A stretch of DNA of 64,000 nucleotides from assembly GCA_965215975.1 (NCBI GenBank), contig OZ244136.1, positions 3,413,281 through 3,477,280 of the forward strand. The letters run 5' to 3'. The position numbers and the translations under genes were made by a program. Below are positions 4,928 through 31,676 of the stretch, piece after piece. The notes beneath the pieces are model-generated. The model was given only the letters and a program-made list of their open reading frames with translations. It was not told where the DNA came from and ran no database searches. Source of the DNA: Dehalococcoidia bacterium. Its GTDB lineage: Bacteria; Chloroflexota; Dehalococcoidia; Lucifugimonadales; UBA3495. The first letter of the stretch is position 1. The number at the start of each line of letters is the position of its first letter.

Positions 4928-5116
4928 TCCCTTTTCCTGCTGTTACTGCTCACAATTCAGTGCTAGCTTCCGACCGGTTCATTCCAGTTGGCAGGCTTGC
5001 GCTGCACTGCATTGCCTTCTTTCCTGCCACTTCGTCTAACTCTACTTAGTCCAACCCTTTCTCCCTCGCCCAGCAAGGTTGACGTTGTCAACGCGAAGTG
5101 ATAAAAATAACCGCTT

Positions 5117-5147
5117 CGCATTACAACTCTTTATATCGCATTACAAA
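5117..5147 (+). promoter_or_regulatory. two copies of an 11-bp direct repeat TCGCATTACAA spaced 20 bp start to start
   Basis: Copies at 5117-5127 and 5137-5147, ending 16 nt before the ATG at 5163. The palindrome GTTGAC-gtt-GTCAAC at 5079-5093 lies just upstream. Confidence 0.4.
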
Positions 5148-5162
5148 GTATTTAGGATTGCT

Positions 5163-6128
5163 ATGTATTTGCCTTTTGAGCGCCTGAGATTGTCTGTCGC
5201 CGTCCTTATTTTCCTGGCAGCACTGGTTGTGCTGCTGGCGTGGAACCGCTCGGACCTGGCGGCGCAGCCGGAAGATGGTGAAGTGCCAGCAGAACAACTT
5301 GGCTTGACCGCTGAGGCCCGGGAAGCATTGCAGGGCTCTGACTTAGCCTTCCCGTCAGACGATGCCGGGTTTTCAGCCTACTATCGCATGGGGAGCATTG
5401 GTGACTATAGCCTTGACAAAGCAACGGTAGACGACCACATCTTCGGCCAGGTCGAATCCAATGCCATTACGGTAAGGACAGCTCCGGCAACTCTGGTAGA
5501 AATAGGCGACAACTACACGATATCGACTCTTTCATTGACGAACATAGACTCGATAGCATCCACCGTTAACCTCTATTACGACGACGAAGGCTGGATTGTG
5601 GCTTACCTGCCAAGCGGCACATCTTCGTCACAAATCTGGCAGGCCAGGGAAGAGAACACGGAAAATCCTGAAATAACGGACATTAGCAATACCACCCTGT
5701 TGGACGCGATAAACGTGGTGGTGGATGACGCATTGGGCGAAACAGCAATCGAGCACGATGATAGCAGTCTGGGATACTACCATTGGCAACATACGGATGC
5801 TGATAACTTCTTGATGATGGCCGTTTCCAGGCAAATTCAGGGAGAATACCCTGTCCAGTTTTCGGTTCCGACGTCATTAACTGTGGCGGAGGTTTCAGCG
5901 ACGATGTGGGTCTCTCTGGCAAGCAACACCGATCCACCATGCGCCAAAGTTATCCTGGACGACTCCGACCTGATCACTGAACAATGCACCAAGGGAATAT
6001 CAAGCAGCACGGCAATCCTGTCAGATTTCAATAACCAGGCCAACCACACATGGAAGCTGATTCAGTCGGAGAGGGATGAAGGAGCTTCTGGGGCCCTGCT
6101 GATGATTCTCTACTCCGTCTCCAATTAG
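5163..6128 (+). CDS. hypothetical secreted/membrane-anchored protein
   Basis: ATG at 5163 preceded by AGGA. The N-terminal hydrophobic anchor LSVAVLIFLAALVVLLAW is followed by an acidic Ser/Thr-rich domain. No motif recognised. The track start at 5079 (TTG) is less likely. Confidence 0.55.
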   Translation: MYLPFERLRLSVAVLIFLAALVVLLAWNRSDLAAQPEDGEVPAEQLGLTAEAREALQGSDLAFPSDDAGFSAYYRMGSIGDYSLDKATVDDHIFGQVESNAITVRTAPATLVEIGDNYTISTLSLTNIDSIASTVNLYYDDEGWIVAYLPSGTSSSQIWQAREENTENPEITDISNTTLLDAINVVVDDALGETAIEHDDSSLGYYHWQHTDADNFLMMAVSRQIQGEYPVQFSVPTSLTVAEVSATMWVSLASNTDPPCAKVILDDSDLITEQCTKGISSSTAILSDFNNQANHTWKLIQSERDEGASGALLMILYSVSN

Positions 6129-7948
6129 TGCCGCTCATGCCCAGGTTAAGAGTTTCAGCCGGAAATTGGAGAAACTACCTTTCAACTGCCCTCTTGATTT
6201 CGGCCTTTACTATTTACGTCCTGACCCTTCCAACATCACTTGTCAGGGCTTCTCAAACGTCTATTCCTCCTGGTCACGACACTTCTGTACTTCAGGGTGA
6301 AACGAAGGACGTAGCAGTAACTTCAATAATTCAAATGGGCCCTCCCTCTGCCAATGAAGGCGACACCGTCACTATCCAAATTGGTGTGGTGAACAACGGA
6401 TCCGGCGAGGAGACATTCAGCGTCAGTCTTCATGACAACACCGAGAATAAGCCGATCGCCTCGAAAGAAATAACGCTGGATGCCAGTAGCTCAACTACCG
6501 CAAGTCTCGACTGGGATACCTGTGGAGCCTCTGGCGGTCCGCCTCCGCCAGGCCCGCCAACGCCGGGAACCATTCACTCCCTGACCGCAACCGCAGTATT
6601 GGAAGGCGATTCAGACAGCAGCAACAATTCCCTGAGTCTTCTACCAGGGATATGGATCATTGCCGCTCCCGAGGCACCTGAGATTGCGTTTCCGGAACAT
6701 TTAGAAATTCCACAAGCCAAGTATGGGGAGGAGTTGCCGTTGGCAGTACCCCTGGTTCAAACGGAGTCTGTTGCCCTTAGCAGCACCTTCGTGGGACCCG
6801 TACAGGGTATGAAGTCGCTCGAAGCTTCAAATGCTTTGATACAAACCGAGGGAGAGGCGCTGAGCAGTGTATTCAAGGGTCCTGTCGATGCAGACGACGA
6901 TTTAGACTTGAAGGATCCGGACATAGGAACTCTGGGAAGCAAGCTTAGCGAGATATTCAGCGCAGGCGTTCAAACAAAGGTAAATGATAATTTTGCCAAC
7001 CCTAATATTGAAACCATCTCTGAACTACTCACTCGCATTCTGTCTGACAACGCTGATGCCCGCGTCGATCAATTCTTACTCAGGCCAGGGATTGATGCTG
7101 AAATTGCACCGTTGACCAGTATTCAAATAGACGATGCTGACAGCGACTCGCTAAGTACTCTCTCAGGACCGGATTTACAAACTGAAGCAGACCCGCTTAC
7201 CGACATTTTCTCCAGCGAAATCGAAGGCAATCGCACCCAAATGCTTTCTGTGCCTGCGATTTTAACCGACGCACTTCCTTTAGCCGAAATCATGTCCGAC
7301 ATTACTCAAGACCGTGTACTTAACGTCTTCTTAGCACCGACCATTGAAACGGAAGCTATGAGTCTGACCGAGTTGTTTATCAGCCCGTTGACCGTCATGT
7401 CCACTCTTGGCAGCAAAAGACCTGACATCAACACGTCGGCCATTCCCCTGTCCGTCATCTTTTCAGGATCGGTTGAGGCCAGACTGGCAAATTCAATTCG
7501 TAAGCCAGAGGTGTCCACTGAGGCGGATCCGTTAAGCCGACTGCACGTTTTTGGTGGGGCGGCCACTTACCAACCTGGCCAAGCGATGGCTCGTCCATTA
7601 GTGGAAACTACGATAGATGGCACGATAAGAGGAAGGATAAAACTGCAAAATGACTCAAACAGCCTGGGCGCCTACGTTACCATTGGTGACGAGGTTACAT
7701 TCGCCGACCGAGATGGCAGATTTGAAGCGCCGGCCCCCACTGAGACTTTTGACCTTTACATCGGGGCGCCCGGGCACATTCCAGTCCTAATAAACGGCTT
7801 TACTCTGGACTCGAGAGAGTCGCTGGAGATTCCGGAGGTGACACTGCTCTTTGGCGACGCAAACAGCGACGGTGTAGTGAACATCTACGACCTGGCTGTG
7901 GCCGCATTCAACTATGGTGAGACCATCCGAACAGTTCCGGCCCCATAA
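6128..7948 (+). CDS. secreted repeat protein: signal anchor, CARDB-like domain, Pro-rich linker, 10 x 28-aa repeats, CarboxypepD_reg-like domain, dockerin-like Ca-binding repeat
   Basis: The GTG start overlaps the upstream TAG (TAGTG); an alternative ATG is at 6137. The CARDB-like segment is EGDTVTIQIGVVNNGSGEETFSVSL, and the linker is GGPPPPGPPTPG. The C-terminal GDANSDGVVNIYDLAVAAFNYG resembles a dockerin/EF-hand repeat. Confidence 0.7.
   Translation: MPLMPRLRVSAGNWRNYLSTALLISAFTIYVLTLPTSLVRASQTSIPPGHDTSVLQGETKDVAVTSIIQMGPPSANEGDTVTIQIGVVNNGSGEETFSVSLHDNTENKPIASKEITLDASSSTTASLDWDTCGASGGPPPPGPPTPGTIHSLTATAVLEGDSDSSNNSLSLLPGIWIIAAPEAPEIAFPEHLEIPQAKYGEELPLAVPLVQTESVALSSTFVGPVQGMKSLEASNALIQTEGEALSSVFKGPVDADDDLDLKDPDIGTLGSKLSEIFSAGVQTKVNDNFANPNIETISELLTRILSDNADARVDQFLLRPGIDAEIAPLTSIQIDDADSDSLSTLSGPDLQTEADPLTDIFSSEIEGNRTQMLSVPAILTDALPLAEIMSDITQDRVLNVFLAPTIETEAMSLTELFISPLTVMSTLGSKRPDINTSAIPLSVIFSGSVEARLANSIRKPEVSTEADPLSRLHVFGGAATYQPGQAMARPLVETTIDGTIRGRIKLQNDSNSLGAYVTIGDEVTFADRDGRFEAPAPTETFDLYIGAPGHIPVLINGFTLDSRESLEIPEVTLLFGDANSDGVVNIYDLAVAAFNYGETIRTVPAP
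6749..7594 (+). repeat. ten tandem 28-codon (84-nt) degenerate repeats inside the CDS
   Basis: Repeat units start at residues 208, 236, 264, 292, 320, 348, 376, 404, 432 and 460, exactly 28 apart. The consensus is P-x-[IL]-x-T-E-x-x-x-L-[ST]-x-[IL]-F-S followed by about 13 variable residues. Confidence 0.8.
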
Positions 7949-16200: not shown

Positions 16201-17082
16201 TTGCGGAGTTGGCTTGTGCCGGCAAAAGCCTCCAAAACCGAAGAAAAGGCTGTGGTAAAATCTCCCAGTCCCACTCCCCGCCGGCGTGGGCGCAGGAAAG
16301 CCGTGCCGACCATCGCCATCAACGAAGCTATCCGGTTGATGACAGAGGAATACGGACCCTTTCCCGATGAACCCCGTCTCGACCCTGTCCACGAACTGAC
16401 CTTTACAATTCTTTCCCAGCACACCTCCGACACCAACTCTGAACGGGCGTTTCGCAGCTTGATGCTAGAATTCGGTTCGCTTGAGGCAGTCGCCGCTGCT
16501 GATGTGTCGAGAATAGAGTCGGCAATCAGCGGTGGCGGGCTTGCAAAGATCAAGGCTCCCCGAATCAAGCAGGTGCTGTCCCGGATATTGGAGTTGAACG
16601 GCACGCTAGATCTTTCCTTCCTGCGGGAAATGCCCCTGGAAGATGCCAAGGCATGGCTCCGGCAACTGCCAGGCATCGGACCCAAGTCTGCCGGCATAAT
16701 ATTGAGCTTTTCCCTCGGTATGCCGGCCATGGCAATCGACACCCACATTTACCGGGTCTCCCAGCGGATGGCCCTGATAGGCCCCAAAGTTTCAGTAGAC
16801 AAAGCCCACGACCTATTGGAAGCGGCCGTAGAACCGGAGCAGGTTTATCCCTTCCACCAGGCATTTATCAACCACGGCAGAACGGTTTGCAAAGCCCAGC
16901 GGCCCCGCTGCCAGGAATGCGTGGTTGGACACGGTTGCCCTTCCCGTGAGCAGTTCATAAAGGCGTCCGAAAAAAAGAGCACGGCAGCCGCAAAAGCAAA
17001 GGTAAGGCAAACCAAGTCCACCGAAACAAAGCGAACCAGGGTGGCCACTCAAGCCCCCCATGCTTACCCAACGATTGAGTGA
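16201..17082 (+). CDS. nth: endonuclease III-like HhH-GPD DNA glycosylase with basic N- and C-terminal tails
   Basis: HhH motif LPGIGPKSAGIIL, catalytic-Asp region IDTHIYRV, and the Fe-S cluster loop C-x6-C-x2-C-x5-C (CKAQRPRCQECVVGHGC). The start is uncertain (TTG 16201 or GTG 16216). Confidence 0.8.
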   Translation: MRSWLVPAKASKTEEKAVVKSPSPTPRRRGRRKAVPTIAINEAIRLMTEEYGPFPDEPRLDPVHELTFTILSQHTSDTNSERAFRSLMLEFGSLEAVAAADVSRIESAISGGGLAKIKAPRIKQVLSRILELNGTLDLSFLREMPLEDAKAWLRQLPGIGPKSAGIILSFSLGMPAMAIDTHIYRVSQRMALIGPKVSVDKAHDLLEAAVEPEQVYPFHQAFINHGRTVCKAQRPRCQECVVGHGCPSREQFIKASEKKSTAAAKAKVRQTKSTETKRTRVATQAPHAYPTIE

Positions 17083-23024: not shown

Positions 23025-23486
23025 TGAATTGACCCTTCTCTCCACAAGAGGGGCTTTTCTGTTTCGGATACCAGCTATTGGCTTCGGAAGGCAGCCCACA
23101 GTCGCAACTCGGCCTAAATCTGCACGTCCACAAATTGCCTATTCTTGCCAGGTAACCTTTCCCCACTGCTCCCTCTGAATGGACTTGCAATTGACCCGTT
23201 TCCTCTTTGCCAAACCTTGCCAACATTAGCCGATTAGAAGCCATTGGTTTATCATCCTATTCGCCGAGGGTAATGGTTGCCGACTTCTGAGGCTCGGCCA
23301 ATACTGGTGCAACATTCGCCCATACCTCGCCGCCAAACACTTGAATCGACCTCTTCCGAAGGTTGCTGCCCTCAATCCGTCTCTATAGAATTGAAAGAGC
23401 CGATCTGCATGTACTGCCATGTGGGGTAGCTTTCGACAGTCGTGCTTAGTCTTGACCAGCGATCTTTTCTTCTCAAGGAAGCCTTT

Positions 23487-24944
23487 ATGAATTACAGAGA
23501 CCTGCGAGAGTTCATTACGTTCCTGGAGCAGCGGGGACAACTGCATCGCATTAGCGCGCCAGTGAGTTGCGAACTGGAAATGACGGAGATAGCTGAACGC
23601 ATGATTAAGGGCGACGGCCCCGCACTCCTCTTCGAGAATGTGGCCGGCTACGACATGCCGGTTCTCATGAATATTTTTTGTTCAGACCAGCGGATGGCAT
23701 GGGCTCTTGGAGTTGACCGGGTAGACGATCTGGTCTCCAGATTAGAAGGAATGCTCCAGCTGGCCCAGGGGGCCCCGGAAGGATTGATGAACAAGCTCCG
23801 TACCCTGGGGCAGATCATTCAAATGGGCCGCTTCCAGCCAAAGACGGTTACCCGCGCCCCTTGCCAGGAAGTGGTGCTGCAAGGTTCCGACGTTGACCTC
23901 TTCAAGTTTCCCATCCTTAAGTGCTGGCCCATGGACGGCGGCCGGTACATTACTCTGCCGCTGGTAATAACCAGGGATCCGGAAACCGGTACGCAGAATT
24001 ACGGCATGTACCGGATGCAAGTCTATGACGCATGCACCACCGGAATGCATTGGCAGACTCACAAAGTGGGAGCCCATCATTACCGGGTGAGCCAGGAACG
24101 GAAAGACAACCGACTGGAGGTCGCGGTTGCTATTGGAGCAGACCCGGCAACCATGTGGACCGGCTCGGCGCCATTACCCCCAGACATGGACGAGATGGCA
24201 GTATCCGGATTCATTCGGGAAGAGGGAGTTGAGCTAGTCAAGGCCAAGACTGTAGACTTGCTGGTGCCAGCCCAGGCCGAAATTGTGCTGGAAGGGCACG
24301 TCTACACAGACGAACAGCGCATGGAAGGTCCCTTTGGCGACCATACGGGCTATTACTCAATGCCGGAAGAGTACCCCGTATTCCATGTTACTACCATCAC
24401 CCACCGTAGAAACCCGATTTATCCCGCCACGGTGGTTGGCCGGCCGCCCATGGAGGACTACTGGATGGGCAAGGTGACCGAGCGTGTTTTCATGCCCATA
24501 ATCAGGATGATAATGCCTGAAATCGTGGACATGAACATGCCAGCCGAGGGCGTCTTTCACAATCTCGTCATAGTTTCGATCAAGAAAGAATACCCCGGTC
24601 AGGCCCGGAAAGTAATGTATGGCCTGTGGGGGCTGGGCCTGATGAATCTCACCAAGACAATTATCGTCGTTGACGACTTCGTTAACGTGCAAGATCCTTC
24701 GGAAGTAACCTGGCGTGTGGCAAACAACATCAATCCCAGCCAAGACATAGTGATTGTCGAGGGGCCGCTGGACGACTTGGAGGTCGGGTCGCCCACTCCT
24801 AAATTTGGCGGCAAAGTCGGAATAGACGCAACCAGAAAGGGCCCTCTAGAGGGCTACACCCGGGGTTGGCCTCCCGACATCGAAATGTCACCGGAGGTCA
24901 AGACCCTGGTTGACAGCAGATGGAAAGAGTACGGATTCAGTTAG
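23487..24944 (+). CDS. ubiD: UbiD-family prenylated-FMN-dependent decarboxylase (quinone biosynthesis)
   Basis: MNYRDLREFITFLEQRGQLHRISAPVS...ELEMTEIAER is the canonical UbiD N-terminus. ATG 23487 is preceded by AAGGAA; the track start at 23442 is less likely. Confidence 0.85.
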   Translation: MNYRDLREFITFLEQRGQLHRISAPVSCELEMTEIAERMIKGDGPALLFENVAGYDMPVLMNIFCSDQRMAWALGVDRVDDLVSRLEGMLQLAQGAPEGLMNKLRTLGQIIQMGRFQPKTVTRAPCQEVVLQGSDVDLFKFPILKCWPMDGGRYITLPLVITRDPETGTQNYGMYRMQVYDACTTGMHWQTHKVGAHHYRVSQERKDNRLEVAVAIGADPATMWTGSAPLPPDMDEMAVSGFIREEGVELVKAKTVDLLVPAQAEIVLEGHVYTDEQRMEGPFGDHTGYYSMPEEYPVFHVTTITHRRNPIYPATVVGRPPMEDYWMGKVTERVFMPIIRMIMPEIVDMNMPAEGVFHNLVIVSIKKEYPGQARKVMYGLWGLGLMNLTKTIIVVDDFVNVQDPSEVTWRVANNINPSQDIVIVEGPLDDLEVGSPTPKFGGKVGIDATRKGPLEGYTRGWPPDIEMSPEVKTLVDSRWKEYGFS

Positions 24945-25021
24945 CTAGTAGCAACTGGAAGATAACAGGTCCAGGCAACTCCGTTTGGGCCACGTCAACC
25001 GTCTAAAATGCTCGAGCTATT

Positions 25022-25927
25022 ATGCAAAACACCGGAACCAGCCGCACCTGGACAGGCTCCTTGCTTGGAAGGGTTTCCCTTTACGCAGGCTCAATACGCA
25101 TTTGGGAATCTCTCTTTGCCCTGCCCTTCGCCTATATCGGCATGACACTGGCCTCACAATCCGCAAACGGCCAACCCTGGCCCGGTTGGCCCGCGTTTGT
25201 CTGGATCACCGTGGCTATGTTTGGCGCACGCACTCTCGGCATGTCGGCCAACCGCCTGATCCATGCCAGGGAAGACCTGGCCAATCCACGTACAGTAGAG
25301 CGTCATCTGCCCAGGGGACTGCTAAAGTCATGGGAAGTGGCGGCCATGGCCGTTATTGGTTTGCTCATACTCATTGTCGGTGCCGCACAGTTGAACCCGC
25401 TTGCACTGTTACTCTCTCCATTAGCGGCCGCCTATGTGGTGTTTTATTCCTACGCCAAGTACTTCACCTGGCTGTGCAATTTCTGCCTGGGCTGGGCGCT
25501 CGCTATTGCGCCAACTGCAGCGTGGATCGGTGTCACCGGCAGCTTGTCTTATGAGCCACTCCTGATTAGCTTTGCCGTGGCAATGTGGGCCGGAGGGTTC
25601 GATATCATCTACGCCTGCACCGATTTTGACTTCGACCGAGGATTTGGGACACGTTCTGTGCCGAGCTACATAGGCATAGCCGAGTCGCTCTGGTTGGCCC
25701 GTATAATGCACTCCCTGTCGGTGTGCGCCCTGCTGGCCCTGGGTCTGCTGACCGGGTTGGCGTGGCCTTATTACATAGGCTGGGTCGTTGCAGTCCTGCT
25801 CTTGATATACGAGAATAGACAGGTAAGTCCAACCGACCTGTCAAGAATTAGCGCCGTATTTTTCAGGGTGAACGGATATGTTTCAGTGCAGTTAATGGCC
25901 TTTACGATATTGGCCCTGGTGGTGTGA
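25022..25927 (+). CDS. ubiA: UbiA-superfamily aromatic polyprenyltransferase
   Basis: Nine-helix membrane protein with first motif NRLIHAREDLANPRT and second motif FDIIYACTDFDFDRGFGTRSVP. Confidence 0.8.
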   Translation: MQNTGTSRTWTGSLLGRVSLYAGSIRIWESLFALPFAYIGMTLASQSANGQPWPGWPAFVWITVAMFGARTLGMSANRLIHAREDLANPRTVERHLPRGLLKSWEVAAMAVIGLLILIVGAAQLNPLALLLSPLAAAYVVFYSYAKYFTWLCNFCLGWALAIAPTAAWIGVTGSLSYEPLLISFAVAMWAGGFDIIYACTDFDFDRGFGTRSVPSYIGIAESLWLARIMHSLSVCALLALGLLTGLAWPYYIGWVVAVLLLIYENRQVSPTDLSRISAVFFRVNGYVSVQLMAFTILALVV

Positions 25928-25952
25928 AATGGCCATCCGACAGGAGACTGGG

Positions 25953-26564
25953 ATGTCGAGGCTGTCCGCACCCAAGCCTATAATTGTGGGTGTTTCCGGC
26001 GCCAGTGGATCCATTCTGGCCCGCGCCACCGTTGAAGCGCTCCTGTTGCGTGATGTACCCACGATTGTGGTTTGCACCAATGCCGCCCGCCTGGTCTGGC
26101 AGGAGGAACTCGACACACCCTTCGGGGAAACCCTGTCGGAGTGGCAGGAACACCCCCGTTTCACCTACTATCCCATGGGAGACATGCGAGCATCCATTGC
26201 CAGCGGGACCTTTGCCACCCGCGGCATGGTTATAGTGCCCTGCAGTATGAACAGCGTCGCCGCCATAGCCCACGGCCTGGCCGGAAACCTGCTACTTCGT
26301 GCCGCCGACGTTTGTTTGAAGGAACGCAGAAAGTTGATACTGGTTCCCCGGGAAACACCTCTTCACGCCACTCACTTGGAGAACATGCTTTCACTCACGC
26401 GCGCCGGGGCGGTGATAATGCCCCCGGAACCGGCCTTCTATCTGAAACCGCAGGGCATCGACGATATCGCCCAGTTCGTGGCCCAGAGGGTACTTGTTGC
26501 GCTGGACATTGAAGAGGAACTGCCTCCAGAGATGCGGTACCACGAAGAAACTCTTCCCGAATAG
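25953..26564 (+). CDS. ubiX: UbiX flavin prenyltransferase
   Basis: IIVGVSGASGS and VIVPCSMNSVAAIAHG motifs. AGGAGA lies 5 nt before ATG 25953 (alternative start 25929). Confidence 0.85.
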   Translation: MSRLSAPKPIIVGVSGASGSILARATVEALLLRDVPTIVVCTNAARLVWQEELDTPFGETLSEWQEHPRFTYYPMGDMRASIASGTFATRGMVIVPCSMNSVAAIAHGLAGNLLLRAADVCLKERRKLILVPRETPLHATHLENMLSLTRAGAVIMPPEPAFYLKPQGIDDIAQFVAQRVLVALDIEEELPPEMRYHEETLPE

Positions 26565-26600
26565 ATATGCCAACCCAACCGCGGGGTACTCTCAAAGAAT

Positions 26601-27323
26601 ATGGCCAACCTGACCGGCGAAGCAAAGCAAACGTATGTGGCGGACCTTTTCGCTCGCATTGCCCGGCAGTACGACTTGATGAACACCCTGATGACCGGAG
26701 GCATGCATCATCGCTGGAAGCGACGAACTGCCCAACTCACCGCCCGCGGGCTTACCGGACCGGCACTGGACATCGCTACTGGAACAGGAGATTTGGCTTT
26801 CTGCCTCGCCCGACAGGACGGAATTAACACAGCATTGGGCGTAGACCTCCTTCCGGCAATGATTGCGCTGGCACAGGATAAGAAGAAAAACACCGGCACT
26901 CCAGCAAAGGTTGATTTTGCGCTGGGTGATGCGCTGGCCCTCCCTTTTGAAGACGGGTCTTTTGTCTGCGCTACGGCAGGATTCAGTCTCCGGAATATGC
27001 CCGATCTGCCAGCGGCGATAGCGGAAATGGCCCGCGTGGTCCGCCCTGGCGGTCGAGTAACGACCCTGGAGCTTAGCCCCATGTCCCCGGGTTTGAAAGC
27101 GACTCTGTTTCGCATGTATTTCCACCGCGTGGTACCCCTGGTCGGCCAAATTGTGGCCGGAGAACGCACCGCTTACACCTACTTGCCGCAATCCGTTGAT
27201 TACTTTCTACAAGCCGACCGTCTTTCCGATCTCTTTGGGGACGTCGGCCTCGTTGACGTTAGTTTCCAGAAGCTGGGGTTCGGAACTGTGGCAATCCACC
27301 AAGGCACCAAACCGACACCGTAA
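26601..27323 (+). CDS. ubiE: demethylmenaquinone/ubiquinone C-methyltransferase UbiE/MenG
   Basis: YDLMNTLMTGGMHHRWKR signature and SAM motif ALDIATGTGDLA. Confidence 0.85.
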   Translation: MANLTGEAKQTYVADLFARIARQYDLMNTLMTGGMHHRWKRRTAQLTARGLTGPALDIATGTGDLAFCLARQDGINTALGVDLLPAMIALAQDKKKNTGTPAKVDFALGDALALPFEDGSFVCATAGFSLRNMPDLPAAIAEMARVVRPGGRVTTLELSPMSPGLKATLFRMYFHRVVPLVGQIVAGERTAYTYLPQSVDYFLQADRLSDLFGDVGLVDVSFQKLGFGTVAIHQGTKPTP

Positions 27324-27523
27324 TCGGTAACGATCGATACATGGACATCTGCCAGGTGGAGGTCTCCACTGCGATTATCAATCATCATTTCCCGACATTC
27401 GACGTTATTTCCGAGAATTTTACCTAAAGCCCTTGTTGGCTTCCGGTACTTGGTATAAACTTGTAAATAGTTCGCCGACAGGCGGACAGGGTAGCGTTGC
27501 ATTTTTCTCCAACAGGTAGAAAT

Positions 27524-28606
27524 ATGAGGTCCATATTCGATAAATTGGACTCTATAGTTCGAAGAAACGCTGAGATCGAGGCCGACATGGGACGGCCGGA
27601 AGTAGCAGCCGATTTCGAACAGATCCAGACCCTGGCCAAGGAAAGAGCCGGCCTCGAAGAGCTGGTGGAAATTGCCCATCTGCATCATTCCTTGCTCAGC
27701 GAGGAGGCTGACCTCAAGGCGTTGGTTGCTGAGGGGGGCGATCCCGAAATAGGCCAGATGGCACGAGAAGAGCTGGAGGCCGTCGAAATTCGGCTTGAAG
27801 ACCTGGCCCAAGAGCTCAAACTGGCTCTCTTGCCGAGGGACCCAAACGACGAAAGGGACGTCATTGTAGAGATTCGCGCCGGCACCGGAGGTCAGGAAGC
27901 AGGGCTTTTCGCAGGTGATCTGGCACGCCTTTACACCCGATATGCCCAACTACAGAATTGGCGGGTCGACGTTATGGACTCCAATCCGTCCGACTTGGGC
28001 GGTTTCAACAAGGTAGTTTTGGAGATACAGGGCAAGGGTGCTTTCAGTCGGCTCAAATACGAGCGTGGCGTGCACCGTGTACAGCGTGTGCCGGAAACCG
28101 AGGCCCAGGGACGGATCCACACTTCGACGGCAACGGTAGCGGTGCTGGCGCAAGCCGACGAAGTAGAAGTAAAGGTCAATCAAGACGAAATAAGGATCGA
28201 TATATTCCACGCAGGTGGTCATGGCGGCCAGAACGTAAACAAGGTTGCCACAGCGGTGCGCATCGTACACGAACCCACGGGAGTAGTAGTTGTTTGCCAG
28301 GACGAGCGCTCCCAGCACAAGAACAAGCAGAAGGCCATGGCAATGCTAAGGGCCAGGCTATTTGAGGCCGAGCAGGAAAGGCACGACGCCGAAATCTCCC
28401 AGAACCGCCGCTCACAAGTTGGCACTGCCGAGCGTTCCGAGAAGATACGGACCTACAATTACCCCCAGGACCGGATAACCGACCACCGAGTTTCATCCAG
28501 CTTCCACGGCATACCCAGCATCATGGATGGTCCGGGACTGGGCGACATTATCAGTTCCCTGATTGCGTGGGAGCAGGGGAAGCTTCTTGAAGAGGTGACG
28601 GCTTAA
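27524..28606 (+). CDS. prfA: peptide chain release factor 1
   Basis: GGQ motif (HAGGHGGQNVNKV) and an RF1-type tripeptide region (RVPETEAQGRIHTS). ATG 27524 gives the typical N-terminus MRSIFDKLDSI. Confidence 0.9.
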   Translation: MRSIFDKLDSIVRRNAEIEADMGRPEVAADFEQIQTLAKERAGLEELVEIAHLHHSLLSEEADLKALVAEGGDPEIGQMAREELEAVEIRLEDLAQELKLALLPRDPNDERDVIVEIRAGTGGQEAGLFAGDLARLYTRYAQLQNWRVDVMDSNPSDLGGFNKVVLEIQGKGAFSRLKYERGVHRVQRVPETEAQGRIHTSTATVAVLAQADEVEVKVNQDEIRIDIFHAGGHGGQNVNKVATAVRIVHEPTGVVVVCQDERSQHKNKQKAMAMLRARLFEAEQERHDAEISQNRRSQVGTAERSEKIRTYNYPQDRITDHRVSSSFHGIPSIMDGPGLGDIISSLIAWEQGKLLEEVTA

Positions 28607-28621
28607 GCCGTATTCGCCGTC

Positions 28622-29488
28622 ATGCCCCTCTTACGAGAAGCCGTCCAACAGACCCACCGCACTCTCGAAGCAAGCCACATCCCTGACGCACGGCTTGAAG
28701 CCGAAGTGATGCTGATGAACGTCATGCGGTTGCAGCGTCACGACCTCTTTTCGCAGCAGGAAACGGAAGTATCCCCCCAACAGGAAGAAGCGCTGGCGCA
28801 CATTTTGGAGCGCCGGCTACAGCGAGAACCCCTGGCATATATTCTTCAATACAAAGAGTTCTATGGCGTCAACCTGCTGGTCAACACTGATGTGCTGATT
28901 CCGCGACCAGAAACTGAGTGCATGGTGGAGCATGCACTTTTCATGGCGCTTATGGGAATGGAAACGCCGAAATTGGTAATCGCCGACGTGGGAACCGGTA
29001 CGGGCGCCATCGCCATTAACCTGGCTATGCATCTGCCGGCCGCCCGCATCTTTGCCGTGGACTATGCCGACGCCGTCCTGGATGTGGCCGCCTATAATAT
29101 TCGGGCCCACAACGTAGGCGACCGGGTAACCTTGGGAAAGGGCGACCTTCTTGAACCCATTCCTGAGCCGGTGGACTTGATTCTGGCCAATTTGCCTTAT
29201 GTACCCAGCGGCCGCATCCCTGATCTGCAACCTGAGATCCGCTGGGAACCACAGCAAGCCCTGGATGGTGGACCGGATGGCCTGGACCTCATTCGCAGGC
29301 TGTTGCAGCAGGCTCCGTCGAAGTTAAAGGAACATGGTATCGTATTGCTGGAACTAGACCCTGAACAGGTTCCAGCAGTACAAGCCATGGCTGAAGAGAT
29401 CTTCCCAGAAGCGGAAATGTCCGTGGAAAAGGATTTGGCCCAGCGAGACCGCATATTTGTAATCAACCGGGGAATGGAATACTGCTGA
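28622..29488 (+). CDS. prmC: release factor glutamine N5-methyltransferase PrmC/HemK
   Basis: SAM motif ADVGTGTGAIAINLA and catalytic NLPYV (an NPPY variant), immediately downstream of prfA. Confidence 0.85.
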   Translation: MPLLREAVQQTHRTLEASHIPDARLEAEVMLMNVMRLQRHDLFSQQETEVSPQQEEALAHILERRLQREPLAYILQYKEFYGVNLLVNTDVLIPRPETECMVEHALFMALMGMETPKLVIADVGTGTGAIAINLAMHLPAARIFAVDYADAVLDVAAYNIRAHNVGDRVTLGKGDLLEPIPEPVDLILANLPYVPSGRIPDLQPEIRWEPQQALDGGPDGLDLIRRLLQQAPSKLKEHGIVLLELDPEQVPAVQAMAEEIFPEAEMSVEKDLAQRDRIFVINRGMEYC

Positions 29489-29615: not shown

Positions 29616-31103
29616 TCAATCAGGCCAGGCCAACTCCAAGGTAGTCACCCGCAGAGTTTCCATATCGGCCACCCTCACCTGGTGGTTGTTTGTGTCGGCG
29701 ATAAACATCTTGCCGCCGGCAATACTCAGGCCGCTTGGTTCAGAAAAGGCTGCTTCCAGCGCGCCCCCGTCCAGGTAGCCCGCCTTACCTGTGCCCAACA
29801 GGGTCTCCGAAGACCTTGGGACGGGCATTATCAGCTTGATCTTATGGTTGTATGTGTCGGCAACATACAGAGCCCCATCTCTGTATGTAATTCCCAGCGG
29901 ATGCTGCAGCCGGACATGGTGGCCCTCTCCGTCCCTGTCGCCGAATTCAAACAGCCCCAGTCCTATAATTGTACGAACTCTGCCATTAGGTTCCAGTTCG
30001 GCCGAGCGGATGGAACTGGTTTCGCTGTCGGCAAAGTAAAGGCGGTTCCCGTCGGTTGTGATGCCACTGGGCTGCGCCAGCGTGGCCTGGTCCATGGCCC
30101 CGTCGCTGATGGACTCGCCGCCGGACCCGGCGTAGGGTCCCACGAGGCCCAATTCCAGGTCCATCACCCACAGTTGATGACAGCCAGCCATGGCAATAAA
30201 GAGCTTATTGTCATGAAATGCCAGATCCCATGGCGAATTCAGCTCTGTGGACAAACCAGGGCCATGGCCTTCGCGACGGTTACCCTGATTGCCGTTACCC
30301 GCAAGGGTCGTAACAGTGCCCGCCACCAAATCGACCTTGCGCAACGCATGGTTCTCGGTGTCGGCAACGAAGAGTGCATCCCCTTCCAATTCCATCCCCT
30401 GGGGATGGTTGAACAGGGCAGAGGAAAAGTCGCCGTCGGCCAAACCCTCTTCACCTGATCCTATTACGGCGGTTACCTTGCCTGCCAGGGAAGCGACCAC
30501 TATCCGGTTGTGGTTGGTATCGGCAATAAACAGGCGATCGCCGGTTTCGTCGGCCAGCACCTTGCCTGGAAAAGACAGAGGTGTTGTTGGCTCTGGCTCC
30601 CTGGCAATCGCAACTGGCTTTCGGTCCAGTTGGCCCTGTTCATCAAACTCCGCGACCATTTGACCCAGCAAGCGGTCCATATCTTCGTAGGACATCTCTC
30701 CTTCGTGCTTGCCGATAACTTTGCCCTCGGGGTCAATGAACATCATGGTTGGCCAGGCCCGGCAGGCATATTCCTGCCATACCTGGAATTCGGCATCATT
30801 GACCACCGGATGTTCAAGTTCGCACCGCTTGACCGCCTTGTAGAGGTTCTCCTTTTCCTTCTCGTTAGGGAACTTGGCGGAATGGACGCCGATAACCATC
30901 AGTTCTTCGGCGTACTTGCGTTCCAGTCTCCGCAACTGCGGAAAGATGTGCATGCAGTTGATTCAACAATAGGTCCAGAAGTCCAGCAGGACTATTTTGC
31001 CCCTCAGCTCCGCCATGGTAAGCGGTCGGTCGGTATTGACCCACTCCAATCCTTGAGGGAAATCAGGGGCATTCACCTTGCCGGCAAAGGACCTGCTAGT
31101 CAT
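29616..31103 (-). CDS. thioredoxin-fold (redoxin) / NHL-repeat protein with in-frame UGA at the CxxC position (predicted selenoprotein, NHLRC2-like architecture)
   Basis: The same frame extends upstream of the track ORF (30953) to ATG 31103, with GGAGAG 7 nt upstream. It reads [59 protein letters not shown]... and contains a single TGA. The length of 1488 nt is in frame, and multiple NHL blades follow ([36 protein letters not shown]). Confidence 0.7.
30927..30944 (-). other. candidate SECIS-like hairpin downstream of the UGA
   Basis: mRNA UUUCCGC-AGUU-GCGGAGA forms 7 bp including one G.U. The loop contains GU and begins 26 nt after the UGA. Confidence 0.3.
30963..30965 (-). other. in-frame UGA codon, predicted selenocysteine (U of a UxxC redox motif)
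   Basis: Plus-strand tca at 30963-30965 is TGA on the coding strand, flanked by TGT (Cys) and ATC AAC TGC (Ile-Asn-Cys). Confidence 0.6.
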
Positions 31104-31166
31104 GACTAACTCTCCAACAATGCGAAAACTGGAACACCAGAACCGTAAACGCCTCTAACGCGCAGC

Positions 31167-31676
31167 TTACTCAAAAGCCAGGGTGGCGTGGCGGAAGAAG
31201 ATGGAGCCCACAGGGTCGCCCAATGGAGCATTGCCAACCAGCACGGCAATCACGTGCTCCTTGCCCGGTTCCGCTGAATCCGAAACTGCCACGCGCTTGG
31301 AAGTGTTGTTGCCGGTTATAACGCCAATGTTCCGGTCTATGGCGCCATCGACATAGACTTCTCCGTAGTTGTCTACGTTGCATTCGAAGAACACCCGGTT
31401 GCCGGCCGATGCTTGTCCCTTGACACTTTCCGGCATGGTAAAGGACAGGCGGTACCAGGCAAAGGTGAATCCTACGGACAGCCTTTCCTGAATGGAATCA
31501 GGCTGCTCCCAGCCGGAATCGTCGTACTCGGGCAGGCGGGCAGGAACCCCGCGCATTTCCGCCACCAGACCCTGATTCGGTTCGCCGGGTACCATACCCA
31601 TGCCGCGCCGCCAACCGGCAGCGCCCAATACCTGCAGGTCACCCTTGTCGTCCAGGTCGAGAGATACTCTTGCCAT
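31167..31676 (-). CDS. hypothetical protein (beta-sandwich, galactose-binding-domain-like by composition)
   Basis: 169-aa ORF with GGAGGA upstream of the ATG. No diagnostic motif recognised. Confidence 0.45.
   Translation of the reverse strand: MARVSLDLDDKGDLQVLGAAGWRRGMGMVPGEPNQGLVAEMRGVPARLPEYDDSGWEQPDSIQERLSVGFTFAWYRLSFTMPESVKGQASAGNRVFFECNVDNYGEVYVDGAIDRNIGVITGNNTSKRVAVSDSAEPGKEHVIAVLVGNAPLGDPVGSIFFRHATLAFE

What the first reader, a model, noticed from the sequence alone, without database searches (positions are those of the whole stretch)
29616..31103. Predicted selenoprotein: in-frame UGA replaces the first Cys of the CxxC motif in a thioredoxin-fold/NHL-repeat protein
The ORF track begins this gene at 30953 (MHIFPQL...), which leaves a redoxin-type domain without its redox motif. 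Reading the minus strand upstream in the same frame gives ATG 31103 (GGAGAG 7 nt upstream) and [66 protein letters not shown]... There is a single TGA at 30963-30965 and no other stop. As I recall, proteins of this architecture (bacterial Trx-like/NHL proteins, eukaryotic NHLRC2) read ...FWTYCCINC... at this point. The TGA therefore falls exactly on the N-terminal Cys of C-I-N-C and gives a UxxC motif, the classic selenocysteine position. TGA is a normal stop elsewhere in the window (prmC at 29486-29488, nth at 17080-17082), so this is not a reassigned genetic code. Automated annotation would miss the N-terminal 47 codons and the active site.
Basis: partly seen in the sequence, partly recalled or inferred. 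Interest (0 to 1): 0.8.

Follow-up and report, generated by a model that had tools for sequence, protein, structure and literature searches.

The report
Selenocysteine form of NHLRC2/SOQ1-type redox protein
This gene encodes a bacterial relative of human NHLRC2 and plant SOQ1 in which an in-frame UGA, followed by a conserved RNA hairpin, very probably inserts selenocysteine at the active-site cysteine; gene callers truncate the protein, and the substitution marks that residue as the family's catalytic redox centre.

Summary
The minus-strand ORF 31103..29616 has 496 codons and one internal TGA (30965-30963), which reads FWTYC-TGA-INC.

The selenoprotein interpretation is strongly supported:
- **Family.** The protein is a full-length homologue of SOQ1 (E 7e-133) and NHLRC2 (E 3e-120). 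The TGA aligns with the second Cys of their CCINC motif, SOQ1 C431 of the C431-C434 redox pair.
- **Conservation.** Of 80 species-representative genomes, 43 carry TGA at exactly this codon and 37 carry TGC/TGT. The 43 are mostly Dehalococcoidia, plus Thermomicrobia, Rokubacteria and Fervidibacter.
- **Hairpin.** All TGA forms carry UUUCCGC-AGUU-GCGGARA, with the loop 25 nt after the UGA. Its synonymous sites are frozen, and three pairs show compensatory changes. No Cys form has it. It meets the published bacterial SECIS model.
- **Stop codon usage.** TGA is also an ordinary stop, both for this gene and for neighbouring genes.

The Sec machinery of this genome could not be checked. A related genome carrying the same TGA form (UBA1141) is reported as Sec-using, with 49 selenoproteins.

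The mechanism is canonical. I found no NCBIfam model or paper describing this family as a selenoprotein. I rate it a new member of a known kind, of moderate-to-good interest.

The parts
29616..31103 (-). Full selenoprotein gene: 495 residues (U47) plus stop. Thioredoxin-like domain followed by an NHL beta-propeller; NHLRC2/SOQ1 family, short form without the C-terminal domain.
   Evidence: tblastn matches query residues 1-495 in related genomes.
31110..31115 (-). Shine-Dalgarno-like GGAGAG, 6 nt before the ATG at 31103-31101.
   Evidence: Read directly from the sequence. Function inferred.
30966..31103 (-). N-terminal 46 codons that gene callers miss or call as a separate 46-aa ORF.
   Evidence: Conserved with an ATG 45-47 codons upstream of the TGA in most Sec forms. 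Entropy by codon position is 0.59/0.27/1.35. Called as a 46-aa ORF in the 98%-identical contig L081.
30954..30968 (-). Active-site motif C46-U47-I48-N49-C50, the CC(I/V)NC motif of NHLRC2/SOQ1 with Sec at the second position.
   Evidence: Motif literature.
30963..30965 (-). In-frame TGA, predicted selenocysteine codon (residue 47).
   Evidence: TGA in 43 of 80 related species genomes and TGC/TGT in the other 37. Aligns with the second Cys of FWTYCCINC in SOQ1.
30927..30944 (-). SECIS-type hairpin: 5' arm 30944-30938 (UUUCCGC), loop 30937-30934 (AGUU), 3' arm 30933-30927 (GCGGAGA). The loop starts 25 nt after the UGA. Encodes F-P-Q-L-R-R.
   Evidence: 99.7% of cells paired; 3 pairs with compensatory changes; 0 of 500 shuffles reach the observed values. 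RNAalifold predicts the same helix. Synonymous sites are frozen and the hairpin is absent from all 37 Cys forms. dG -8.8 kcal/mol.
30639..31073 (-). Thioredoxin-like domain (about residues 11-155; TlpA/DipZ-like, Thioredoxin_8).
   Evidence: Pfam PF13905 54.7 bits and PF00578 36.4 bits. Aligned to the SOQ1/NHLRC2/DipZ Trx-like domains.
29631..30587 (-). NHL-repeat beta-propeller (about residues 173-491).
   Evidence: Pfam NHL 94.8 bits. Aligned to the propeller-containing chains 7djm, 7djl (SOQ1) and 6g7w (NHLRC2).
29616..29618 (-). Genuine TGA stop of the same gene, with no such hairpin after it.
   Evidence: 21 of 44 Sec-form genes end in TGA.
29616..30953 (-). The truncated 445-aa ORF that automatic annotation reports.
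   Evidence: Database proteins P0001-P0064 are all 427-458 aa (most 438-451) and start at or after MHIFPQL. GenBank MCH7605891.1 is 444 aa and named 'alkyl hydroperoxide reductase'.

Best explanation
The gene encodes a 495-residue cytoplasmic protein of the NHLRC2/SOQ1 family: a thioredoxin-like domain followed by an NHL beta-propeller. The UGA at codon 47 is decoded as selenocysteine. While the ribosome holds the UGA in its A site, the hairpin UUUCCGC-AGUU-GCGGAGA, with its loop 25 nt downstream, recruits SelB.GTP.Sec-tRNA(Sec). Sec is then inserted instead of termination (inferred from the canonical bacterial mechanism). The same mRNA ends at a second UGA that has no such hairpin.

The product carries a C-U-I-N-C active site. 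Sec47 is the exposed nucleophile of a U-x-x-C redox pair, and Cys50 is the resolving residue. Sec47 would attack an oxidised substrate held in the cleft against the propeller 'cup'. That substrate could be a disulfide, a sulfenate or a sulfoxide. Cys50 would then form a selenenylsulfide with Sec47, and an upstream reductant would reduce it (inferred).

Shown here:
- the TGA lies exactly on the redox Cys column;
- the reading frame is conserved on both sides;
- the hairpin is conserved, covaries and occurs only in TGA forms.

Inferred: actual Sec insertion, the substrate and the reductant.
For: (1): one internal TGA in an otherwise open 496-codon frame.
(2): full-length homology to SOQ1 (7djj, E 6.9e-133) and NHLRC2 (6gc1, E 2.7e-120). 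Residue 47 aligns with the second Cys of FWTYCCINC.
(3): SOQ1 C431-C434 is a redox-active pair that aligns with the catalytic cysteines of cDsbD.
(4): 43 of 80 species-representative genomes have TGA at this codon and 37 have TGC/TGT.
(5): a 7-bp hairpin is present in all 44 Sec forms, with 99.7% of cells paired. Three pairs show compensatory changes: U-A to C-G six times, U-A to G-C in Fervidibacter L041, and G-C to C-G in Thermomicrobia L050, the last at the cost of an Arg-to-Gly change. RNAalifold finds the same helix independently.
(6): the hairpin codons are frozen. TTG 44/44 against 14% gene-wide; CCG 43/44 against 35%; CGG 43/44 against 28%; TTT 37/44 against 24%. Flanking codons vary freely. 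0 of 37 Cys forms can form the helix, against 43 of 44 Sec forms.
(7): the hairpin meets the published bSECIS constraints. Loop of 4 nt with G at position 2 followed by U; 7-bp stem; 25 nt spacing; dG -8.8 kcal/mol.
(8): the upstream 35 codons show the coding pattern of variation. In L004, L005, L006, L009 and L023 the codon after INC is not a start codon.
(9): TGA is also a real stop here.
(10): the UBA1141 genome (locus L007, same TGA form) is listed with 49 selenoprotein genes in a database that accepts only species with Sec pathway genes.
Against: - No selA, selB, selD or tRNA-Sec was found in the 64-kb window. Only 19 ORFs were scanned, and the rest of the genome is not available.
- There is no experimental evidence of selenium incorporation.
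- For the single window sequence, the fold energy of the 76-nt region is not unusual (z = 0.28). The hairpin is convincing only through comparison.
- The 44 sequences are related, forming one clade. Their invariance is therefore not 44 independent observations.
- The biochemical activity is extrapolated from SOQ1, whose methionine sulfoxide reductase activity is attributed to a C-terminal domain that this protein lacks.
Confidence: 0.9

Rival explanations
1. Pseudogene or sequencing/assembly error: the TGA is a disabling lesion or a miscalled TGC/TGT.
For: Only one assembly of this window is available and no reads were inspected. Gene callers split the gene.
Against: The same TGA occurs at the same codon in 43 other species-level genomes and in dozens of 90%-identity protein clusters truncated at the same point. 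There are no other lesions. Both halves are under purifying selection. A dedicated hairpin co-occurs only with TGA.
Confidence: 0.01
2. The TGA is a true stop. The locus makes a 46-residue peptide plus a separate 445-residue protein re-initiated at ATG 30953, and the hairpin serves translational coupling or mRNA stability.
For: In the window and many relatives an ATG (Met51) follows four codons after the TGA.
Against: In L004, L005, L006, L009 and L023 the equivalent codon is GCC, GCG, GTC or GTT, which are not start codons. The next callable starts remove still more of the fold (P0002, P0003). The split would cut the thioredoxin fold at its active site and remove the redox nucleophile, while the resolving Cys and the preceding Cys stay conserved. 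The break falls exactly on a codon that is Cys in all 37 other homologues.
Confidence: 0.03
3. The UGA is read through, but as a standard amino acid (Cys, Trp or Arg) by near-cognate or suppressor decoding stimulated by the hairpin, not as selenocysteine.
For: The Sec machinery was not demonstrated for this genome. Misincorporation of Cys at Sec codons is known for some selenoproteins under selenium limitation (my own knowledge, not checked here).
Against: The hairpin matches the SelB-type bSECIS model in spacing, loop size and the G-U in the loop. The recoded position is the classic U-x-x-C nucleophile. The clade is reported as selenoprotein-rich. TGA is an efficient ordinary stop in the same genomes.
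Confidence: 0.05
4. The conserved nucleotides after the TGA reflect only an amino-acid requirement for F-P-Q-L-R-K in this subfamily, not an RNA structure.
For: The hairpin lies in coding sequence, and the peptide PQLR is nearly invariant in Sec forms.
Against: Synonymous positions are frozen to rare codons: TTG 44/44 against 14% usage, TTT 37/44 against 24%. Where the sequence does change, both arms change together and pairing is kept, even at the cost of amino-acid changes: R to G in L050, F to L plus K to Q in L041. Cys forms have P-D-L-K with free codon choice. The one Cys form nested among the Sec forms (L068) has lost the helix.
Confidence: 0.01

Closest known systems
Arabidopsis SOQ1 lumenal Trx-like/NHL domains (PDB 7djj) and human NHLRC2 (PDB 6gc1)
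   Same: Full-length homology over the Trx-like and six-bladed NHL propeller domains (E 6.9e-133 and 2.7e-120). The same FWTYC-C/U-INC active-site motif and the W-P-T (cis-Pro) segment. The motif sits in the cleft facing the propeller cup.
   Different: Sec replaces the second Cys of the motif. There is no C-terminal beta-stranded domain with its Cys pair, no HAD domain, no transmembrane segment and no signal peptide, so the protein is probably cytoplasmic. In SOQ1 the methionine sulfoxide reductase activity is assigned to the domain that is missing here.
Bacterial Trx-fold U-x-x-C selenoproteins (Prx-like thiol:disulfide oxidoreductase, thiol:disulfide interchange protein, 'Redoxin family protein' PF08534, Trx-like families of the ocean selenoproteomes)
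   Same: Sec at the N-terminal position of the CxxC motif of a thioredoxin fold, with Cys-containing homologues more numerous. A SECIS hairpin lies just downstream of the UGA in the coding region.
   Different: Those families, as listed, are single-domain redoxins. None in the 2026 review is described with an NHL propeller, and 'NHL' does not occur in the main text of the review, the BSepDB paper or the GOS paper. [quoted passage not shown]
E. coli fdhF-type bacterial SECIS / bSECIS consensus model
   Same: Hairpin in the ORF immediately 3' of the UGA, small apical loop with G then U, and spacing within 16-37 nt.
   Different: The sequence is unrelated. Only a 7-bp upper stem with a 4-nt loop is conserved, and no conserved lower helix reaches the UGA. 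SelB binding was not tested.
Mycobacterium tuberculosis DipZ C-terminal Trx-like domain (PDB 2hyx) and TlpA/ResA thiol-disulfide oxidoreductases
   Same: Closest single-domain structural relatives of the Trx-like domain (E 4.6e-22 for DipZ). DipZ carries the related SCINC motif.
   Different: They are extracytoplasmic reductases without a propeller and without Sec.

Membership tests
Bacterial selenoprotein gene (SelB/SECIS-dependent UGA recoding) | In-frame UGA aligned with Cys in homologues, at a redox-active position | tested here: met
   TGA in 44 sequences against TGC/TGT in 37 at the same column. The column is the second Cys of CCINC, SOQ1 C431 of the C431-C434 pair.
Bacterial selenoprotein gene (SelB/SECIS-dependent UGA recoding) | Coding conservation on both sides of the UGA | tested here: met
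   The upstream 35 codons have entropy 0.59/0.27/1.35 by codon position. An ATG lies 45-47 codons upstream in most Sec forms. The downstream 448 codons are conserved.
Bacterial selenoprotein gene (SelB/SECIS-dependent UGA recoding) | Hairpin 3' of the UGA meeting the bSECIS model (3-9 nt loop, 4-16 bp stem, G in the first two loop positions, 16-37 nt spacing, MFE <= -7.5 kcal/mol) | tested here: met
   Loop AGUU, 7 bp, 25 nt spacing, -8.8 kcal/mol. Criteria quoted from PMC13188914.
Bacterial selenoprotein gene (SelB/SECIS-dependent UGA recoding) | Evolutionary support for the RNA structure, specific to UGA forms | tested here: met
   Three pairs with compensatory changes and 0 of 500 shuffles as good. 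Frozen synonymous sites. 43 of 44 Sec forms against 0 of 37 Cys forms can form the full helix.
Bacterial selenoprotein gene (SelB/SECIS-dependent UGA recoding) | tRNA-Sec, SelA, SelB and SelD encoded in the same genome | not testable with these tools
   None found in the window or in the +/-3 kb flanks of 43 loci. The rest of the genome is unavailable. Indirect evidence: BSepDB lists genome UBA1141 (locus L007) as Sec-using, with 49 selenoproteins.
Bacterial selenoprotein gene (SelB/SECIS-dependent UGA recoding) | Selenium demonstrated in the protein | not testable with these tools
   Needs 75Se labelling or mass spectrometry.
NHLRC2/SOQ1 family | N-terminal Trx-like (Thioredoxin_8/TlpA-DipZ-like) domain | tested here: met
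   PF13905 54.7 bits. Aligned to the SOQ1, NHLRC2 and DipZ Trx-like domains.
NHLRC2/SOQ1 family | NHL-repeat beta-propeller directly following the Trx-like domain | tested here: met
   PF01436 94.8 bits. Residues 173-491 align to the propeller-containing chains 7djm and 7djl. The number of blades is taken from the homologues' structures, not modelled here.
NHLRC2/SOQ1 family | CC(I/V)NC motif at the CXXC position | tested here: met
   C-U-I-N-C: the motif is kept, with Sec at the second position.
NHLRC2/SOQ1 family | C-terminal beta-stranded domain with a conserved Cys pair (SOQ1 C1006/C1012; NHLRC2 C689/C696) | tested here: not met
   The protein ends about 448 residues after the motif. All 44 Sec forms have 447-464 residues there, against about 573-622 with a C-x7-C pair in most Cys forms. 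The NHLRC2 paper describes this domain as non-conserved, so I treat this protein as a short-form member of the family.
Peroxiredoxin / alkyl hydroperoxide reductase (the GenBank name of homologue MCH7605891.1) | Best match to the AhpC/TSA family, with the peroxidatic Cys in its Prx context | tested here: inconclusive
   PF00578 scores 36.4 bits, above its cut-off but below Thioredoxin_8 at 54.7 bits. All close structural relatives are TlpA/ResA/DipZ-type thiol-disulfide oxidoreductases, and no peroxiredoxin appears among the 44 PDB matches. The sequence does read T-x-x-U as well as U-x-x-C. Peroxidase activity was not tested.

The most novel reading that the evidence does not exclude
Sec-containing NHLRC2/SOQ1 orthologues may be a selenoprotein family that has not been described, and I found none annotated as such. 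It has a single evolutionary origin and is retained across Dehalococcoidia and a few other lineages. If so, it gives the first natural evidence that the second Cys of the CCINC motif is the catalytic redox nucleophile of this family, which includes a human disease gene whose biochemistry is unknown. The short Sec forms, which lack the C-terminal domain, may be stand-alone Sec-dependent protein-repair reductases. They would use the propeller to hold the substrate.
Probability: 0.45. Interest if true: 0.68.

Novelty: new member of a known kind. Interest (0 to 1): 0.58.

Why it matters
1. **Annotation.** In every close homologue retrieved, the deposited or predicted protein lacks its first ~50 residues or more, and with them the active site. 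One GenBank entry is named 'alkyl hydroperoxide reductase'. A family model with a Sec-aware rule would correct these.

2. **Function of NHLRC2/SOQ1.** Natural Sec/Cys pairs are an accepted marker of catalytic redox cysteines. NHLRC2 is essential, and its variants cause FINCA disease. It showed no activity in the classical insulin assay, and its biochemical function is undetermined. A Sec at the position of SOQ1 C431 argues that the CCINC motif is a true redox catalytic centre. It also offers a naturally more reactive enzyme for finding substrates.

3. **A teaching example.** The P-Q-L-R signature of the Sec forms is the amino-acid footprint of the SECIS hairpin, and the footprint and the helix disappear together when Sec reverts to Cys. 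This shows clearly how an RNA element constrains protein sequence.

Tried and rejected
- **Rfam.** The gathering scan of the whole window and a permissive scan of 30850-31000 found nothing relevant. Neither scan matched any SECIS family.
- **Single-sequence folding.** It finds the hairpin, but the z-score is not significant. Only comparison is informative.
- **Sec machinery.** ARAGORN found one tRNA-Glu in the window and no tRNA-Sec in the flanks of 43 Sec-form loci. NCBIfam/Pfam scans of 19 window ORFs, including those sized like SelA, SelB and SelD, gave amidase, aminotransferases, RF1, PrmC, UbiE and others, but no sel genes.
- **Other selenoprotein genes in the window.** A six-frame scan for TGA-interrupted ORFs gave 69 mechanical candidates. 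By inspection of the list they look like adjacent genes in one frame or frames overlapping other ORFs (examples checked), and none other than this gene was convincing.
- **Split-domain idea.** I tested whether the conserved 169-aa upstream neighbour is the missing C-terminal domain encoded separately. It shows no similarity to the C-terminal domain of P0089, has only one Cys, and has a weak GH2_N jelly-roll hit. Rejected.
- **Structure prediction.** It was not needed given E 1e-133 to solved structures.
- **Exact look-up of U-containing full-length proteins.** I therefore could not check whether any source stores a Sec-annotated version.
- **Literature.** No paper in the held library co-mentions NHLRC2 or SOQ1 with selenocysteine in a relevant way. 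The motif-string search returned only noise. The Haft & Tolstoy 2025 paper is not held.
Full report
**1. The observation**

The minus strand from 31103 to 29616 is one 496-codon frame with a single internal stop. That stop is a TGA at 30965-30963, in the context ...[27 protein letters not shown].... An ATG at 31103-31101 follows GGAGAG (31115-31110) after a 6-nt spacer. The gene terminates at another TGA (29618-29616).

TGA is an ordinary stop in this window. Five of 15 genes checked end in TGA, including prmC at 29486-29488; 13 of the 15 have a family match. The genetic code is therefore not reassigned.

**2. What the protein is**

With residue 47 written as Cys, Pfam gives a thioredoxin-like N-terminus and NHL repeats: Thioredoxin_8 54.7 bits, AhpC-TSA 36.4 bits, NHL 94.8 bits.

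Against the PDB, the best matches cover the full length:
- Arabidopsis SOQ1 lumenal domains, 7djj, E 6.9e-133, query residues 11-491;
- human NHLRC2, 6gc1, E 2.7e-120;

The alignment places residue 47 on the second Cys of FWTYCCINCMH. The literature describes the motif as follows:
- In NHLRC2 the CC(I/V)NC motif replaces the CXXC motif. It sits at the N-terminus of helix alpha-1, in the cleft facing the propeller 'cup' (PMC6107167).
- In SOQ1, C431-C434 is the redox-active pair, and it aligns with the catalytic cysteines of cDsbD (bioRxiv 10.1101/2024.11.01.621559).

The TGA therefore falls on the N-terminal nucleophilic position of the C-x-x-C pair, giving C-U-I-N-C.

**3. Comparative evidence for recoding**

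*Protein database.* The 64 best hits (70-100% identity) are all 427-458 residues long, most of them 438-451, and cover 83-90% of the query. They begin at MHIFPQL, or further downstream at MRRLERKY or MVIGVHS. This is what gene callers produce when they stop at the same TGA. Full-length hits appear only at 63% identity or less, and those retrieved read FWTYCCINC.

*Species-representative genomes.* A scan returned 80 loci.
- 43 have TGA at exactly this codon. Most are Dehalococcoidia, including a SAR202 single-cell genome. The rest are a Thermomicrobia MAG, a Rokuibacteriota MAG, an unclassified Chloroflexi isolate and the complete genome of *Candidatus* Fervidibacter sacchari PD1.
- 37 have TGC or TGT. 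These are Blastocatellia and other Acidobacteriota, Latescibacterota, Planctomycetota, Armatimonadota, Anaerolineae and others.

*Upstream segment.* It is conserved, with an ATG 45-47 codons before the TGA in most Sec forms. Its variation by codon position (entropy 0.59/0.27/1.35) is that of a translated sequence under purifying selection.

*No restart.* In L004, L005, L006, L009 and L023 the codon after I-N-C is GCC, GCG, GTC or GTT, so no restart is possible there.

*TGA as stop.* Twenty-one of the 44 genes end in TGA.

*Close relative.* A 98%-identical relative on a 270-kb contig is syntenic with the window. Its gene caller reports a 46-aa ORF followed by a 427-aa ORF.

**4. The hairpin**

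All 44 TGA forms carry UUUCCGC-AGUU-GCGGARA, starting 18 nt after the UGA. The loop begins 25 nt after the UGA. In the window the coordinates are 5' arm 30944-30938, loop 30937-30934 and 3' arm 30933-30927.

*Pairing and covariation.*
- RNAalifold predicts exactly this helix and nothing else.
- On the stated structure, 99.7% of cells are paired, and three of seven pairs show changes on both sides. The changes are U-A to C-G in six sequences, U-A to G-C in L041, and G-C to C-G in L050.
- None of 500 shuffles reaches any of the observed measures.
- Sliding the 3' partner by 1-3 columns drops pairing to 32-72%.
- The L050 change costs an Arg-to-Gly substitution. The L041 changes cost Phe-to-Leu and Lys-to-Gln.

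*Codon usage.*

| Hairpin codon | Use in the 44 Sec forms | Gene-wide use of that codon |
|---|---|---|
| TTG (Leu) | 44/44 | 14% |
| CCG (Pro) | 43/44 | 35% |
| CGG (Arg) | 43/44 | 28% |
| TTT (Phe) | 37/44 | 24% |

- The flanking His, Ile/Val, Glu, Lys and Leu codons vary synonymously.
- Cys forms read P-D-L-K with free codon choice. None of the 37 can form the helix, against 43 of 44 Sec forms.
- The median MFE of the 24-nt window is -9.4 kcal/mol in Sec forms and 0.0 in Cys forms.
- The P-Q-L-R signature of the Sec forms is therefore the amino-acid footprint of the RNA element.

*Fit to the bSECIS model.* The hairpin meets the published constraints: loop 3-9 nt, stem 4-16 bp, G in the first two loop positions followed by G or U, 16-37 nt spacing, and MFE at or below -7.5 kcal/mol (PMC13188914). 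The window value is -8.8 kcal/mol.

*Caveat.* The sequences are related, so invariance counts lineages, not independent events.

**5. Evolution and architecture**

A neighbour-joining tree puts all Sec forms in one clade. Two Cys-containing Dehalococcoidia proteins (L074, L076) are its sisters. One Cys form (L068, Thermobaculum) is nested inside the clade and has lost the helix. This fits a single Cys-to-Sec conversion followed by one reversion. The tree is only a distance tree, without support values.

Sec forms are short. They have about 46 residues before the motif, 447-464 after it, and no C-terminal domain. Apart from L041 and a few loci with longer apparent N-termini, there is no room for a signal sequence. 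Most Cys forms in the sample have an N-terminal hydrophobic leader and a C-terminal domain with a C-x7-C pair, like the Trx-NHL-CTD lumenal part of SOQ1. The Fervidibacter Sec form is the exception, with a hydrophobic N-terminus.

**6. Sec machinery**

Sec machinery was not found in the window:
- the only tRNA is tRNA-Glu;
- 19 ORFs scanned, including all those of SelA, SelB or SelD size, belong to other families or to none;
- no tRNA-Sec lies within 3 kb of the gene in 43 related genomes.

With these tools the rest of the genome cannot be reached. Indirect support comes from BSepDB, which accepts only species with at least two Sec-pathway genes. It lists Dehalococcoidia bacterium UBA1141 among the ten most selenoprotein-rich bacteria, with 49 genes (PMC13326102). 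That genome is locus L007 here and carries the TGA plus hairpin. Sec-containing formate dehydrogenases have also been reported in Dehalococcoidia single-cell genomes (PMC5736913).

**7. Mechanism**

*Recoding (inferred from the canonical bacterial system).* SelB.GTP.Sec-tRNA(Sec) binds the apical part of the hairpin while the UGA is in the A site. The terminal UGA has no such hairpin and is read as a stop.

*Chemistry (inferred from the thioredoxin fold and the SOQ1/NHLRC2 work).* Sec47 is the exposed nucleophile and Cys50 the resolving residue. The substrate would be held in the cleft against the propeller cup.

This short form lacks the domain to which SOQ1's methionine sulfoxide reductase activity is attributed. 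It probably acts directly on its substrate or on a separate partner. Neither the substrate nor the reductant is known. The neighbouring genes give no operon clue:
- a 169-aa protein of unknown function;
- a dienelactone hydrolase;
- an aminotransferase;
- an MFS transporter;
- on the other side, prmC, prfA and a ubiE-ubiX-ubiA-ubiD cluster.

**8. Known or new**

A thioredoxin-fold U-x-x-C selenoprotein with a coding-region SECIS is a well-known kind. For this particular family I found the following:
- NCBIfam has no model. The best hit is ResA at 58.7 bits against a cut-off of 170, and the WAxxUGC selenoprotein model scores 20 bits against 300.
- The word 'NHL' does not occur in the main text of the 2026 review with its family table, of the BSepDB paper or of the GOS paper.
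- No held paper links NHLRC2 or SOQ1 with selenocysteine.
- GenBank MCH7605891.1 is a truncated 444-aa 'alkyl hydroperoxide reductase'.

I cannot exclude that the family is already counted under a generic label. [quoted passage not shown] I therefore rate it a new member of a known kind.

**9. Verdict**

The interest is moderate to good. The mechanism is ordinary. The finding corrects a widespread annotation error. It also gives evolutionary evidence that the CCINC motif of the NHLRC2/SOQ1 family is a catalytic redox centre.

Noticed in passing
window 31167-31676 (-): A 169-aa ORF lies 63 nt upstream of the selenoprotein gene on the same strand. It has no Pfam or NCBIfam family, only a weak Glyco_hydro_2_N jelly-roll hit (E 0.008). 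It is conserved in the same position in 19 of the related Dehalococcoidia loci (64-89% identity). It may be co-transcribed with the selenoprotein gene. It is not related to the SOQ1-type C-terminal domain.
   Followed up: partly
L041:3118-3120 and upstream (Candidatus Fervidibacter sacchari PD1, NZ_CP130454.1): This Sec form has a 76-residue N-terminus with a hydrophobic segment (MWRILTATAIITMILISVGMM...). That suggests a membrane-anchored or exported selenoprotein in a cultured organism with a complete genome. Its hairpin carries two compensatory pairs (CUGCCGC/GCGGCAG).
   Followed up: partly
L068:3139 (Thermobaculum sp. MAG): A Cys form (TGC) nested inside the Sec clade in the distance tree. 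It keeps P-H-L-R-K-L but has lost the hairpin, which looks like a Sec-to-Cys reversion.
   Followed up: partly
alignment A2, codon before the TGA (window 30966-30968): The Cys codon just before the UGA is TGT in 31 of 44 Sec forms. The same codon is TGC in 29 of 37 Cys forms, with TGT in 4 and GGC in 4. This may be a context effect on UGA recoding, or simply shared ancestry.
   Followed up: no
window 5079-6128 (+) and 6128-7948 (+): Two adjacent, overlapping-stop ORFs of 349 and 606 aa have no match in NCBIfam or Pfam at E <= 0.001.
   Followed up: no
window 23442-27323 (+), then 27497-29488 (+): By length and synteny with L081, this is a ubiD-ubiA-ubiX(flavoprotein)-ubiE prenyl-decarboxylase/quinone cluster, followed by prfA (RF1) and prmC. 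It converges on the selenoprotein gene. Only UbiE, RF1 and PrmC were confirmed on the window itself.
   Followed up: partly
P0068 = GenBank MCH7605891.1; L081:9797-9937: Public annotation of this family is systematically truncated. One GenBank entry is a 444-aa 'alkyl hydroperoxide reductase'. JGI names include 'DNA-binding beta-propeller fold protein YncE'. One ENA gene call reports the N-terminal 46 codons as a separate ORF.
   Followed up: yes
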